Origin: a virus
Lineage: Duplodnaviria > Heunggongvirae > Uroviricota > Caudoviricetes
IMG/VR virus record: IMGVR_UViG_2851976983_000001
Location: 32,001 to 96,000 of that record
DNA length: 64,000 bases
Direction: 5' to 3' (one strand)
In this document: positions 19,870-20,600 of the stretch, in pieces
How the letters are laid out: the number at the start of each line of letters is the position of its first letter
Position numbering within the stretch: position 1 is the stretch's first letter
The notes under the pieces: generated by a model
The model's input: only the letters and a program-made list of their open reading frames with translations
Told to the model about the DNA's origin: nothing
Databases searched by the model: none
Translations under genes and position numbers: made by a program

Positions 19870-20600
19870 TATTTCGCGGCGGTACTTGTTGATGGACAAC
19901 CAGGCAACCAGGAACTTTCCCGCAACTTGCACTTTACGTTAGTGCCAGACGAGGCTTGTGGCGCGCTCACATAGAGCAAAGATCTGGAATCCTTCTCGGT
20001 GGTTGACGGCCGCCAGATTCTTCGATCTTATTGGATGTATGGAATCATCCATGTTGTGAAACCAGGGGCTACATAGGCAACAATGATTTCACCAGAGGGT
20101 TAAAGAATCCTGCTTTCACAACGTTGAGGCCGCTGAACCGATTTATGTTCGACCCAACATATTGATCAGTCACTACAGCTCTGTGGAATCACCTGTATGA
20201 TTAAAAGAAAAACAGTGACCTCAACGTTGTGCGCTGGCTAACCAAGCCAGCCGGGTTACGTCGCCGCTTTTAACCCAAGATTAAACGACATAAGTAATGG
20301 AAATGACGTAACAGGATGGACGGTCAGCTGGCTGAAACCGGGATGATGGAATGGAATGAGGAAACCAACCGTCCATCCTGTTACTTCATCGAATAGGGCA
20401 TGGGTGGTGCAACATGCCCTATCCTGCGTTCTGAAATCACACTCGCTCAGTGTGTCCCATTTCGGTGACGAGGCTGGAAACTGACCTCGCTGGTGTTTGG
20501 CTTCTTAGGCTACTGCCAGGTACGTATCTTCGTTTGCAGTTATATTTAACGTTCAAACAGTCGCATCTCAACGAAAACAAGTGAATCTTATACGTATTAA
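19870..20600. ncRNA. ORF-free structured block with at least five stable hairpins (candidate structured RNA or DNA site)
   Basis: Inverted repeats 20117-20129/20219-20231 (13 bp), 20309-20324/20368-20383 (16 bp), 20393-20402/20413-20422 (10 bp), plus 6 bp hairpins near 20235 and 20437. Confidence 0.3.

What the first reader, a model, noticed from the sequence alone, without database searches (positions are those of the whole stretch)
19870..20600. 730 bp ORF-free block with several long inverted repeats
The block contains a 13 bp repeat pair 90 nt apart (CACAACGTTGAGG, 20117/20219), a 16 bp pair with a 43 nt loop rich in GGAATG (20309/20368), a 10 bp hairpin (20393-20422) and two 6 bp hairpins. 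This density of perfect stems is unusual for an intergenic region. It could be a structured RNA such as a tRNA leader or ribozyme-like element, or a DNA-level site such as a replication origin or packaging site. I see no reverse transcriptase nearby, so a retron is unlikely.
Basis: seen in the sequence. Interest (0 to 1): 0.55.

Follow-up and report, generated by a model that had tools for sequence, protein, structure and literature searches.

The report
Phage RNA mimicking and targeting tmRNA
The "ORF-free block" encodes a densely folded phage RNA placed in front of a tRNA gene; its first 150 nt copy the tag-coding part of the bacterial ribosome-rescue RNA (tmRNA) and are also antisense to it, which suggests that hundreds of enterobacterial phages and phage-plasmids (including Yersinia pestis pMT1) interfere with ribosome rescue.

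Summary
All the inverted repeats exist, and the block folds far better than shuffles (z -6.9, minus strand). The hairpins are conserved with compensatory changes in 32-42 SSU5-like phage-plasmids, with G.U 292 vs A.C 6, so selection acts on a minus-strand transcript.

The block is a roughly 960-nt non-coding RNA unit: promoter-like site, structured modules, tRNA-Asn, 20-bp hairpin, terminator.

The new finding is the first module, E1 (20578->20426). It occurs in about 500 phage records of unrelated groups and has three features:
- A start-codon-less, tmRNA-type tag frame (ANEDTYLAVA*) with a clear codon-level selection signature.
- Its stop codon in a helix-5-like hairpin, followed by two covariation-supported pseudoknots.
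- A 5' arm that is collinear antisense to E. coli tmRNA nt ~67-105 (resume codon and first tag codons).

No tRNA-like domain accompanies E1, even in a whole E1-bearing phage genome.

Best reading: an RNA that acts on host trans-translation, either blocking the host tag template or replacing it with its own (inferred, untested). There are no expression data. Rfam tmRNA models hit only below threshold.

The parts
20585..20613 (-). Promoter-like site: -35 TTTACT (20613-20608), 17-nt spacer, -10 TAAGAT (20590-20585). It begins 4 nt after the stop codon of the upstream 101-aa gene and predicts a start at G20578.
   Evidence: Read from the sequence. It matches 8/12 consensus positions, so the simple scan did not list it. 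The segment is conserved in 42 SSU5-like loci. At the equivalent place, EC6 has TTGACA-17-TATAGT and BUCT610 has TTGACA-17-TAGATT. Transcription was not tested.
20426..20578 (-). Module E1, a tmRNA-like/anti-tmRNA RNA: antisense arm, linker, tag frame, helix-5-like hairpin and two pseudoknots.
   Evidence: About 113 nt of it match 372-494 phage records of unrelated groups. The only Rfam hits with E<=10 in 20400-20620 are two tmRNA families, below threshold.
20555..20578 (-). 5' arm antisense to E. coli tmRNA. GUUUUCGUUG (20578-20569) pairs with tmRNA nt 95-104. UGCGACUGUUU (20565-20555) pairs with nt 82-92, which includes the resume codon.
   Evidence: RNAduplex gives -27.8 kcal/mol, the best site in the whole tmRNA, with 5/1000 shuffles as good. 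This is the top-ranked of 192 windows of the block, but only z -3.2. The signal is much stronger in the other phage groups.
20505..20537 (-). Tag reading frame GCA AAC GAA GAT ACG TAC CTG GCA GTA GCC TAA = ANEDTYLAVA*. There is no start codon; an in-frame TAA lies 2 codons upstream.
   Evidence: There are 32 distinct variants, all open with a stop at the same position (TAA, TGA or TAG). Ten of 11 third positions vary. Synonymous/non-synonymous counts are 815/1256 in this frame against 58/2039 and 462/1504 in the other two. A(-6) U(-5) A(-4) upstream matches E. coli tmRNA.
20490..20519 (-). Helix-5-like hairpin (CUGG...CCAG, inner UAGCC/GGCUA type) with the stop codon in its loop.
   Evidence: The outer 4 pairs are invariant, and the inner helix has 13 double changes at one pair. 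The Rfam tmRNA model aligns it to tmRNA helix 5.
20455..20490 (-). Hairpin H3 (GCGAGG 20490-20485 / CCUCGU 20473-20468) and pseudoknot PK1 (loop UUCCA 20479-20475 with UGGGA 20459-20455).
   Evidence: In 75 distinct non-SSU5 homologues, H3 and PK1 are 100% paired, with compensatory changes at 5 pairs (15, 14, 1, 29 and 10 sequences).
20426..20454 (-). Hairpin H4 (CACACU 20454-20449 / AGUGUG 20443-20438). PK2 is weak here (loop GCG 20446-20444 with CGC 20428-20426).
   Evidence: H4 is 100% paired with 2 compensating pairs. PK2 has type-specific partners in other groups (GCCC/GGGC, GCCCAC/GUGGGC, GACGGGAG/CUCCCGUC, GCCCUGA/UCAGGGC), but only 3 bp in the SSU5 type.
20391..20424 (-).
   Evidence: Four pairs show compensatory changes in 10-11 of 32 sequences.
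20303..20389 (-). Long hairpin LH1: 22-bp stem with a 43-nt loop.
   Evidence: Found. The stem is kept in 32 SSU5-like loci with G-C/G.U/A-U changes, while the loop varies.
20253..20293 (-). Stem UUAUGUCGUU/GGCGACGUAA. A possible third pseudoknot pairs loop GGGUU with AACCC.
   Evidence: RNAalifold predicts the stem. The pseudoknot partner changes only A->G, so the pair stays as U.G. This does not demonstrate the pseudoknot.
20233..20251 (-). Hairpin HP2 (GCUGGC...GCCAGC).
   Evidence: One pair switches G-C to A-U in 3 sequences, and one switches U.G to C-G in 15.
20117..20231 (-). Long hairpin LH2: 19-bp stem with a 77-nt loop.
   Evidence: Found. Three pairs show compensatory changes in 9, 3 and 11 sequences.
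19870..20116 (-). Remaining leader, with further predicted helices. It contains the family-invariant AUGAUUCCAUACAUC (hairpin 20050-20033).
   Evidence: MFE fold and alignment of 42 loci. The helices were not tested individually. The distance from the tag frame to the tRNA 3' end is 722-773 nt in all 42 loci.
19794..19868 (-). tRNA-Asn (GTT).
   Evidence: ARAGORN; Rfam tRNA at 76.2 bits.
19710..19792 (-). Long hairpin LH3: perfect 20-bp stem with a 43-nt loop, directly after the tRNA.
   Evidence: Found. In other SSU5-like lineages a different long hairpin plus another module occupies this place.
19616..19635 (-). Intrinsic terminator (AAAGGGGCUUCGGCCCCUUU followed by a U run).
   Evidence: This is the only terminator-like site found downstream of the promoter-like site on this strand.

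Best explanation
The block is the template of one minus-strand non-coding transcription unit of an SSU5-like phage-plasmid. It runs from a promoter-like site (20613-20585) through a chain of structured RNA modules, tRNA-Asn and a long hairpin to a terminator (19616).

The 19-22-bp stems (LH1, LH2, LH3) are the right size for RNase III and probably cut the precursor into pieces (inference).

The promoter-proximal module E1 is an RNA directed at the host's ribosome-rescue system. It has two working parts:
- Its first 24-32 nt are antisense to host tmRNA across the 3' strand of PK1, the linker, the resume codon and tag codons 1-5.
- About 15-20 nt further on, it carries its own recoded copy of what that arm masks. 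This copy comprises an A-rich linker with U(-5)A(-4), a GCA resume codon, a 10-codon tag frame ending ...LAVA, a stop codon in a helix-5-like hairpin, and pseudoknots.

E1 has no tRNA-like domain, so it cannot act as a tmRNA on its own.

Most likely mechanism (inferred): E1 anneals to host tmRNA and silences the host tag template. Its own frame shows amino-acid-level selection, so it probably offers that frame to the rescued ribosome instead. This would form a hybrid two-piece tmRNA built on the host's alanyl-tRNA-like domain and SmpB.

Shown here: the structure, the strand, the conservation, the coding signature and the complementarity. Inferred: transcription, processing, annealing in vivo and tag replacement.
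For: RNA level and strand:
- Compensatory changes occur in HP1, LH1, HP2 and LH2 across 32 SSU5-like loci.
- G.U 292 vs A.C 6.
- Minus-strand fold z -6.95.
- The tRNA and terminator lie on the same strand.

tmRNA-like nature of E1:
- The tag frame has no start codon. All 32 distinct variants are open, with TAA, TGA or TAG at one fixed position.
- Ten of 11 third positions vary. Synonymous/non-synonymous counts are 815/1256 against 58/2039 and 462/1504 in the other frames. Mean BLOSUM62 of replacements is +0.97 against -1.42 and -0.01.
- Variants found with an anchor outside the frame are synonymous: GCT AAT..., GTA->GTG.
- A(-6) and A(-4) are invariant and U(-5) is in 12 of 15 variants, as in E. 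coli tmRNA.
- The only Rfam hits on E1 in five phage groups are tmRNA families: 12-26 bits, same strand, aligned on the tag and helix 5.
- ARAGORN itself calls 'tmRNA* tag peptide ANDNVFLAVA**' in one FelixO1-like locus. Published genome notes report the same for Felix O1 and Moogle.
- H3, PK1 and H4 are 100% paired, with 105 double-change cells against 28 in shuffles. PK2 partners are type-specific.

Antisense arm:
- In 66 of 66 distinct variants, the 5' domain pairs much better with E. coli tmRNA nt 67-112 (mean -28.0 kcal/mol) than with E1's own resume region (-13.5).
- The best site in the whole tmRNA is nt ~67-106 in 6 of 7 representatives, z -2.3 to -5.1.
- In HK620, a lambdoid prophage and a Webervirus, the arm windows are the top hits in 700-nt scans, z -3.5 to -6.8.
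- The pairing blocks are conserved, while the spacer between them varies from 0 to 10 nt. Block-2 variants GCGGCU, GUGACU, GUGGCU and GCGAUU keep pairing through wobble.

No tRNA-like partner:
- None in the 64-kb window apart from tRNA-Asn.
- None near E1 in other groups.
- The complete genome of E1-bearing phage BUCT610 has no tRNA, tmRNA or Rfam hit.

Precedent: synthetic antisense oligonucleotides specific for a given tmRNA variant abolish more than 95% of trans-translation in vitro (PMC7038980).
Against: - No expression data were available. A Y. pestis sRNA-seq study lists two pMT1 sRNAs, and neither is E1.
- For the SSU5-type arm in this window the statistical support is modest. It is the top window, but z -3.2 among 192 windows is not a clear outlier. 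The seed alone gives p 0.03 for Watson-Crick pairs only, and is not significant if G.U pairs are allowed.
- The complementarity could partly reflect origin by inverted duplication of a tmRNA fragment rather than present function.
- Nothing shows that a ribosome can switch to a template attached to tmRNA only by an intermolecular duplex.
- PK2 is nearly lost in the SSU5 type.
- All Rfam tmRNA hits are far below gathering scores.
- Only E. coli tmRNA was tested. From memory, Salmonella tmRNA has ACC for AAC at tag codon 5, which would put one mismatch in the first block.
Confidence: 0.5

Rival explanations
1. Pure anti-tmRNA inhibitor. E1 anneals to the host tmRNA resume region and blocks or destroys it, for example through RNase III or RNase E cleavage. 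The tag-like frame and pseudoknots serve only as a decoy scaffold or as a relic and are never translated.
For: The antisense arm. There is no tRNA-like domain. Synthetic antisense oligonucleotides inhibit trans-translation.
Against: The frame shows amino-acid-level purifying selection. It uses three different stop codons at one fixed position, and it has no indel in 33 nt although indels begin right after it. The frame-setting positions A(-6) and A(-4) are invariant and U(-5) is in 12 of 15 variants. None of this is expected for an untranslated scaffold.
Confidence: 0.2
2. E1 is the coding piece of a genuine phage two-piece (permuted) tmRNA. Its acceptor piece is encoded elsewhere, or is too divergent to recognise. 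The complementarity to host tmRNA is then a by-product of common ancestry.
For: ARAGORN calls a permuted tmRNA in a FelixO1-like locus. The best Rfam hit is tmRNA_permuted. E1 often sits among tRNA genes and tRNA-like pieces.
Against: No T-arm with NCCA and a matching 5' strand is shared by the phage groups. The whole BUCT610 genome has no tRNA-like gene. The ARAGORN 'gene' spans 749 nt and three ordinary tRNA genes, and its acceptor stem lacks G3.U70. The E1 5' end (GUUUUCG) is not an alanine-type acceptor strand.
Confidence: 0.1
3. The block is an ordinary processed leader or spacer of a phage tRNA operon. The hairpins are RNase III or RNase E processing and stability signals, and the tmRNA resemblance has no consequence.
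For: The block is on the same strand as tRNA-Asn and its distance to the tRNA is conserved. The 19-22-bp stems fit RNase III substrates. E1 lies inside the tRNA cluster in FelixO1-like phages.
Against: E1 also occurs without any tRNA: in BUCT610 and in the HK620 late leader between pR'/qut and the late terminator. It is conserved at 76-85% between otherwise unrelated phages. The coding signature and the antisense blocks would remain unexplained.
Confidence: 0.1
4. The block is a DNA-level element: a lytic replication origin, a packaging site or attC-like recombination hairpins.
For: It lies in the replication-gene neighbourhood, with ligase, primase, helicase and polymerase in SSU5. It contains long inverted repeats whose bases read ...CACAAC/GTTGTG....
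Against: G.U 292 vs A.C 6 shows that one specific single strand is selected. There are no iterons and no AT-rich or skew signal. The near-perfect 20-bp stems are unlike attC sites. The pseudoknots and the coding frame make no sense in DNA. Single-stranded DNA folding of the same strand is not formally excluded.
Confidence: 0.04
5. The block hides a conventional small protein gene.
For: Mechanical ORFs of 42-47 aa overlap the block.
Against: Homologues differ by 1-2-nt indels throughout. The +1 frame ATG is CTG, GTG or absent in many variants, and that frame is almost entirely non-synonymous at 58/2039. The region is unannotated in 392 E. coli genomes.
Confidence: 0.02

Closest known systems
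tmRNA (SsrA), standard one-piece form, Rfam RF00023
   Same: - A-rich linker with U(-5)A(-4) and a GCA resume codon without a start codon.
- A 10-codon tag beginning AN(D/E), as in gammaproteobacterial tags.
- The stop codon lies in the loop of a helix-5-like hairpin.
- A series of H-type pseudoknots follows.
   Different: - No tRNA-like domain: no acceptor stem with G3.U70, no T-arm and no CCA.
- Only about 150 nt long.
- The tag ends in LAVA, not ALAA.
- It carries a 5' arm antisense to tmRNA itself.
- It scores 11-12 bits against a gathering score of 47.
Two-piece tmRNA from circularly permuted genes (alpha-, beta-proteobacteria, cyanobacteria; RF01849-51, RF04321)
   Same: This form shows that the tag template and the acceptor part need not be one covalent molecule. 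The best Rfam hit of E1 is tmRNA_permuted, and the sequence around the resume codon (AUAAAUGCAAACGAU) is the same as that model's consensus.
   Different: In known two-piece tmRNAs both pieces come from one gene and pair through the acceptor stem and helix 2. Here no acceptor piece is encoded. The proposed partner is the host's own tmRNA, joined through an antisense arm.
Mycobacteriophage DS6A tag-less tmRNA (tRNA-like domain only)
   Same: [quoted passage not shown]
   Different: It is the mirror image. DS6A keeps the tRNA-like domain and lacks the tag frame, whereas E1 keeps the tag frame and pseudoknots and lacks the tRNA-like domain.
Prophage-encoded anti-sRNAs (AgvB, AsxR of EHEC; from memory, Tree et al. 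2014)
   Same: They are phage RNAs in the late-leader or tRNA region of lambdoid prophages that act by base-pairing with a host non-coding RNA.
   Different: Those are short Hfq-bound sponges of GcvB and FnrS. E1 targets tmRNA and carries a translatable-looking tag module. No homology was tested.
Stable RNAs in phage tRNA clusters (T4 species 1 and 2 RNAs; from memory)
   Same: They are non-tRNA structured RNAs co-transcribed and processed with phage tRNAs, and their function is unknown.
   Different: No sequence relation was tested, and no tmRNA-like features are reported for them.

Membership tests
tmRNA (RF00023 and clan) | tRNA-like domain: acceptor stem with G3.U70, T-arm and a 3' (N)CCA end that AlaRS can charge | tested here: not met
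   ARAGORN finds only tRNA-Asn in the 64-kb window. A T-arm + 7 nt + NCCA scan finds only that tRNA plus one chance site inside a coding gene. No element is shared near E1 in other phage groups. Whole phage BUCT610 has 0 tRNA or tmRNA genes.
tmRNA (RF00023 and clan) | Internal tag reading frame that starts at a resume codon (usually GCA) without a start codon or SD, and ends at a stop codon in helix 5 | tested here: met
   The frame 20537->20505 encodes ANEDTYLAVA*, with an in-frame TAA two codons upstream. It has a coding signature and a fixed stop position. It aligns to tmRNA model positions 83-140, including helix 5.
tmRNA (RF00023 and clan) | Frame-setting upstream sequence (U85/A86 in E. 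coli, i.e. U-5 and A-4; from literature recalled from memory) | tested here: met
   A(-6), A(-4) and A(-3) are invariant, and U(-5) is present in 12 of 15 distinct upstream sequences. E. coli has AUAGUC.
tmRNA (RF00023 and clan) | Pseudoknots flanking the tag frame | tested here: met
   Two H-type pseudoknots 3' of the frame are supported by covariation. A PK1 equivalent 5' of the frame was not established.
tmRNA (RF00023 and clan) | Score at or above the Rfam gathering threshold | tested here: not met
   Scores are 11-26 bits against thresholds of 47-84.
Two-piece (permuted) tmRNA | Acceptor piece (T-arm, 3' acceptor strand, CCA) encoded next to the coding piece and pairing with its 5' end | tested here: not met
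   None in the window. The ARAGORN permuted call in L105 relies on a permuted tRNA-like element 560 nt upstream, across three tRNA genes, without Ala identity.
Trans-acting antisense sRNA | Extended conserved complementarity to a defined target RNA, better than expected by chance | tested here: met
   The signal is weaker for this window's subtype.
Trans-acting antisense sRNA | Expressed as an RNA and forms a duplex with the target in vivo | not testable with these tools
   No transcriptome data were available. The Y. pestis sRNA list does not include it.
tRNA operon leader | Same strand as the tRNA, no terminator in between, and a common terminator downstream | tested here: met
   Spacing is conserved at 722-773 nt in 42 loci.
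Replication origin / pac site | Iterons or DnaA boxes, an AT-rich unwinding region and strand-symmetric conservation | tested here: not met
   Only short two-copy direct repeats. GC is 0.45-0.54 with flat skew. G.U 292 vs A.C 6.
Retron | Adjacent reverse transcriptase gene | tested here: not met
   The eight flanking ORFs scanned include a DNA ligase and a PhoH-like protein; the other six match only phage families of unknown function. None is a reverse transcriptase.

The most novel reading that the evidence does not exclude
Tag swapping by molecular piracy. E1 anneals through its 5' arm to host tmRNA, which buries the host's resume codon and first tag codons. A few nucleotides downstream it presents its own resume codon and tag frame. 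The host's alanyl-tRNA-like domain and SmpB then rescue stalled ribosomes but write a phage-specified tag, (A)AN(D/E)xx(Y/F)LAVA, instead of AANDENYALAA. This would be a natural inter-species two-piece tmRNA. The new tag keeps the SspB-binding N-terminal part but changes the ClpX-recognised C-terminus, so it would re-route or spare rescued proteins.
Probability: 0.3. Interest if true: 0.95.

Novelty: new variant of a known kind. Interest (0 to 1): 0.8.

Why it matters
tmRNA-SmpB is the main ribosome-rescue and quality-control pathway of bacteria. It is needed for virulence in several pathogens and is a drug target. I found no description of a natural RNA that targets tmRNA, nor of a tmRNA tag module without its tRNA-like domain.

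The element is not rare:
- It is in about 500 deposited phage genomes. These include FelixO1-like, Vi01-like/Kuttervirus and Webervirus therapy candidates, HK620 and lambdoid prophages of STEC O26.
- It is in about 800 SSU5-like phage-plasmids, including Y. pestis pMT1, where it abuts caf1R.
- Annotation pipelines leave it blank.

If it blocks or rewrites tagging, it would be a new way for phages and plasmids to manipulate host proteostasis. It would also give a ready-made natural inhibitor or re-programmer of trans-translation, and would make directly testable the question of whether tag template and acceptor can be supplied by different genomes. Even in the most conservative reading, it defines a widespread, well-supported structured RNA family with two covarying pseudoknots.

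Tried and rejected
- Known RNA families: Rfam at gathering threshold and at E<=10 found none except tRNA and sub-threshold tmRNA hits. The microRNA 'hits' are just long hairpins.
- Small protein gene: rejected because of non-3n indels and the frame statistics.
- tRNA-like domain: I searched by ARAGORN, by a T-arm/NCCA regex with complementary 5' strands, by a whole-window scan and in a whole phage genome. There were only chance 7-mers and ordinary tRNAs. A site at 21223 lies inside a coding gene and ends ACCC.
- tRNA-like element after E1 in EC6 with G3.U70/A73: it is at the position of tRNA-Arg(UCU) in relatives and covaries like a tRNA anticodon arm, so it is not a general partner.
- Module 'E2' (GUGGUGAAUGCGCAGGCUGAUGCGC...GCCGGAGAUCAGCACCGGCCACCAC) as acceptor piece: it has no G3.U70 and no 3' CCA in register, and it is absent from this window.
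- Intramolecular pairing of the E1 5' end with its own tag codons: there is no covariation, and it is weaker than pairing with host tmRNA in 66/66 variants.
- Seed-only test: the first 13 nt against tmRNA gives p 0.0007-0.06 for Watson-Crick pairs only, and is not significant with G.U pairs. It is a lead only; the multi-block analysis was needed.
- Other antisense segments in the block, such as the invariant AUGAUUCCAUACAUC against tmRNA nt 316-330: z -2.0, not significant.
- Expression evidence: the two pMT1 sRNAs of a Y. pestis RNA-seq study (sR082, sR083) map elsewhere. Searches for pHCM2 or SSU5 transcriptomes gave nothing.
- Genome-collection scan: the pattern was too loose. Only the Buttiauxella, Kluyvera and Pseudocitrobacter hits look genuine by taxon, and I did not check them further.
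- attC-like recombination sites: considered because the stem bases read CACAAC/GTTGTG. The integron-in-phage paper does not mention this locus. Not tested with an attC model.
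Full report
**1. Where we are.**
The window is identical over this block to E. coli plasmid CP025897.1 and 97% identical to Salmonella phage SSU5, so it is an SSU5/pHCM2/pMT1-type phage-plasmid. In total 803 plasmid records match at least part of the block. All flanking genes are on the minus strand: a DNA ligase, small phage proteins of unknown function and a PhoH-like protein. The block begins right after the stop codon (20617) of a 101-aa gene. It ends at a tRNA-Asn(GTT) gene on the same strand (19868->19794). After the tRNA come a perfect 20-bp hairpin and the only intrinsic-terminator-like site in the neighbourhood on this strand (19635->19616).

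**2. The observation.**
The 714-nt minus-strand RNA folds with z = -6.95 against dinucleotide shuffles; the plus strand gives z = -4.3. No ORF of 60 aa or more is present.

**3. The stems are selected, and at the level of one strand.**
I collected 42 distinct SSU5-like loci from IMG/VR.
- The distance from the tag frame (below) to the tRNA 3' end is 722-773 nt in all of them, although the middle of the block diverges to about 67% identity.
Compensatory double changes occur at 11 pairs.
- Over these helices there are 292 G.U cells but only 6 A.C cells. The minus-sense single strand is therefore what folds.
It argues against a duplex-DNA site such as an origin or pac site. There are also no iterons and no compositional signal.

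**4. A sub-element that is everywhere.**
Part of the block, roughly 20435-20547, matches 372-494 deposited phage genomes of unrelated kinds. These include Klebsiella Weberviruses, Vi01-like Ackermannviridae, Felixounaviruses and the P22-like phage HK620. It nearly always lies in unannotated DNA.
- In HK620 it lies in the late leader between pR'/qut and the late terminator.
- In FelixO1-like phages it lies inside the tRNA cluster on the tRNA strand.
- In Webervirus BUCT610 it lies alone behind a consensus sigma-70 promoter.
- It is also in chromosomal prophages of 137 E. coli genomes and plasmids of 255. All copies are unannotated apart from two partial matches that overlap an unrelated CDS.

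I call this module E1. In the window it spans 20578->20426 on the minus strand.

**5. E1 carries a tmRNA-type tag frame.**
Reading the minus strand, 20537->20505 is GCA AAC GAA GAT ACG TAC CTG GCA GTA GCC TAA, which encodes ANEDTYLAVA*. The E. coli tmRNA tag is GCA AAC GAC GAA AAC TAC GCT TTA GCA GCT TAA (ANDENYALAA; sequence checked).
- There is no start codon, and an in-frame stop lies two codons upstream.
- Among 32 distinct versions of the 33 nt, all are open and all stop at the same position, using TAA, TGA or TAG.
- Ten of 11 third positions vary, against 2 first and 4 second positions.
- Pairwise codon differences are 815 synonymous / 1256 non-synonymous with mean BLOSUM62 +0.97. The other two frames give 58/2039 (-1.42) and 462/1504 (-0.01).
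- A second database scan anchored outside the frame added purely synonymous variants (GCT AAT GAT AAC..., GTA->GTG) and removed the only alternative ATG.
- Indels are absent from the 33 nt but begin immediately after the stop.
- Upstream, A(-6), A(-4) and A(-3) are invariant and U(-5) is in 12 of 15 variants, as in E. coli tmRNA. There, U85/A86 set the frame; this point is recalled from the literature and was not checked here.

**6. E1 structure.**
In 75 distinct non-SSU5 copies, the stop codon sits in a hairpin that the Rfam tmRNA model aligns to helix 5.
- The next hairpin (H3), a pseudoknot between its loop and a downstream tetramer (PK1), and a further hairpin (H4) are 100% paired. They show 105 double-change cells against 28 +/- 4 in shuffles, with no unpaired cell.
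- The search pattern did not constrain the covarying positions.
- The H4 loop pairs with the sequence after an invariant GAUUAAUAA. The partners are type-specific and differ completely between lineages, giving a second pseudoknot. In the SSU5 type this is reduced to 3 bp.

**7. Independent recognition as tmRNA-like.**
With permissive thresholds, the only Rfam hits on E1 are tmRNA families: tmRNA_permuted, beta_tmRNA and tmRNA. This holds in the window and in four other phage groups. The hits are always on the same strand and always aligned on the tag region, but score only 11-26 bits. ARAGORN calls a permuted tmRNA with tag ANDNVFLAVA in one FelixO1-like contig. Genome announcements mention an ARAGORN 'ssrA' in Felix O1 and Moogle but not in Mushroom. 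A Kuttervirus announcement lists 0 tmRNAs. I found nothing on SSU5-like elements, and nothing functional.

**8. No tRNA-like domain.**
A tmRNA needs an alanine-accepting tRNA-like domain. I found none:
- not in the window;
- not as an element shared between phage groups;
- not in the entire 46.8-kb genome of E1-bearing phage BUCT610, which has no tRNA, tmRNA or Rfam hit at all.

The ARAGORN call in the FelixO1-like contig depends on a circularly permuted tRNA-like element 560 nt upstream, across three tRNA genes, and it lacks G3.U70.

**9. The 5' arm is antisense to host tmRNA.**
The invariant 5' end of E1, which is at +1 according to the promoter-like hexamers, is complementary to E. coli tmRNA.
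- In the window, GUUUUCGUUG (20578-20569) pairs with nt 95-104 (tag codons 2-5). UGCGACUGUUU (20565-20555) pairs with nt 82-92 (linker plus resume codon). That is 21 bp at -27.8 kcal/mol, the best site in the whole tmRNA, with 5/1000 shuffles as good.
- In the other groups, four collinear blocks (GUUUUCGU, GCGACU, UUGCGG, U5A) pair with nt 96-105, 86-91, 75-80 and 68-73. Energies are mostly -30 to -36 kcal/mol (-26 in the FelixO1-like group), with z down to -5.1 against shuffled arms and -6.8 in the sliding-window scans.
- In sliding-window scans of 700 nt around E1 in HK620, a lambdoid prophage and a Webervirus, the arm windows are the top hits.
- In 66 of 66 distinct variants the arm pairs far better with host tmRNA (mean -28.0) than with E1's own homologous region (mean -13.5). 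E1's own linker and codons 3-5 are 'recoded' so that they do not match the arm.
- The pairing blocks are conserved, while the spacer between blocks 1 and 2 varies from 0 to 10 nt. Several block-2 substitutions preserve pairing through G.U.

Caveats: for this window's subtype the arm is the top window, but with z -3.2 among 192 windows. The seed alone is only marginally significant. An origin by inverted duplication of a tmRNA fragment could explain part of the similarity. Only E. coli tmRNA was tested.

**10. Mechanism.**
Shown here:
- a conserved, strand-specific, highly structured RNA-type locus;
- a translated-looking tmRNA-type tag module without an acceptor domain;
- an arm complementary to exactly the part of host tmRNA that the module duplicates.

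Inferred:
- E1 is transcribed, from its own promoter or from pR' in lambdoid phages.
- It is released from the precursor at the 19-22-bp stems.
- It anneals to host tmRNA.

Annealing there should at least block tagging. Synthetic antisense oligonucleotides specific for a given tmRNA variant abolish more than 95% of trans-translation in vitro (PMC7038980).

Because the E1 frame is under amino-acid-level selection, I favour a stronger reading. The duplex would tether E1's own resume codon to the host's tRNA-like domain and SmpB, so that rescued ribosomes write ...LAVA instead of ...ALAA. I give about 0.3 to this tag-swap model, about 0.2 to a pure inhibitor, and about 0.1 to a split tmRNA with an undiscovered partner. 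The remainder goes to more ordinary readings.

The rest of the block (HP1, LH1, a possible third pseudoknot, HP2, LH2, the invariant AUGAUUCCAUACAUC hairpin) may extend the tmRNA-like pseudoknot and helix array, or may be separate cargo. I could not tell which.

**11. Comparison and novelty.**
E1 works like part of a tmRNA, but it fails the membership test on the defining tRNA-like domain and on the Rfam thresholds.
- It is the mirror image of the tag-less tmRNA of mycobacteriophage DS6A.
- It resembles the coding piece of two-piece tmRNAs, except that no acceptor piece is encoded.
- Literature searches for phage tmRNA-like RNAs or natural anti-tmRNA RNAs found only the ARAGORN remarks above and the synthetic oligonucleotides.

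I rate it a new variant of a known kind. If the tag-swap reading holds, it would be categorically new.

Noticed in passing
L227 (Y. pestis pMT, NZ_CP045150.1) 1201-1788: In Y. pestis pMT1 the unit is intact from the promoter-like site through E1 (tag ANEDTYLAVA*) to LH2. It then breaks off directly next to caf1R, the regulator of the F1 capsule operon. The tRNA-Asn part is gone.
   Followed up: partly
L003 +220..+345, L004 +205..+300, L011 +350..+445, L017 +190..+290, L002 +190..+290 (offsets from the tag pattern, RNA sense): A second conserved module, 'E2', follows E1 in lambdoid, HK620, Webervirus and Taipeivirus-like phages. Its ends read GUGGUGAAUGCGCAGGCUGAUGCGC ... GCCGGAGAUCAGCACCGGCCACCAC, with a variable middle. 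The two hairpin loops (GCUGAU/AUCAGC) could kiss. It has no Rfam hit, and some SSU5-like lineages carry a version after tRNA-Asn.
   Followed up: partly
L003, L004, L011, L015, L017, L006; window 20389-20303, 20231-20117, 19792-19710: There is a family of 19-22-bp long hairpins whose stem bases read (A)CACAAC.../...GUUGUG. Their stems differ in sequence (for example GAGCAUUG/CAGUGCUC against GAGCGCUG/AGCGCUC) and their 'cargo' loops of 43-77 nt vary. Some loops contain T-arm-like hairpins. They separate the modules in all these phages. They may be RNase III sites or mobile cassettes, and the CACAAC motif resembles GcvB target sites.
   Followed up: no
L005 about -560 nt from the tag pattern; L105, L099, L123, L115 at the same place: FelixO1-like phages carry a circularly permuted tRNA-like element: T-arm, 3' acceptor strand, (G)CCA or A-GAT, then 3-4 nt later the complementary 5' acceptor strand and a D-arm. 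The acceptor strands covary between lineages (ACCCTTC/GAAGGGT against ACTCGGC/GTCGAGT). This is what ARAGORN uses for its 'permuted tmRNA' call.
   Followed up: partly
L005 +156..+240 from the tag pattern: A tRNA-like gene that ARAGORN does not call sits just after E1 in EC6-type Felixounaviruses. It has acceptor CGGGGCG/CGCCTCG (G3.U70), A73 and CCA, a UCU anticodon loop and no normal D-arm. Relatives have an ordinary tRNA-Arg(TCT) at this place.
   Followed up: partly
window 5035-5453 (+) and 45954-46070 (+): Rfam finds a full-length cspA thermoregulator (185.7 bits) and an ALIL pseudoknot (121.8 bits, the IS3-type frameshift signal) elsewhere in the window. This phage-plasmid therefore carries a cold-shock gene leader and an IS element.
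   Followed up: no
L002 1298-1512 (-), L013 1709-1862 (-), L017 264-330 (-): Other Rfam RNAs lie close to E1 in related loci: STnc100 in Klebsiella phage Bullseye, a Sib antitoxin RNA in a prophage contig, and int-alpA RNA.
   Followed up: no
window 20033-20050 (-): The family-invariant AUGAUUCCAUACAUC is complementary, with a 1-nt bulge, to E. coli tmRNA nt ~321-333 (GGAUGUAGGAAUU, helix 2 3' side). The same AUUCCAU motif recurs in the LH1 loop. The window-scan z is only -2.0, so this may be chance.
   Followed up: partly
window 18318-19046 (-): A 242-aa phage protein (phrog_21382, unknown function) lies downstream of the terminator. It gives a weak sub-threshold Pfam hit to the ribosomal protein S5 C-terminal domain (E 0.004, 16.9 bits against a cutoff of 21.5).
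   Followed up: no
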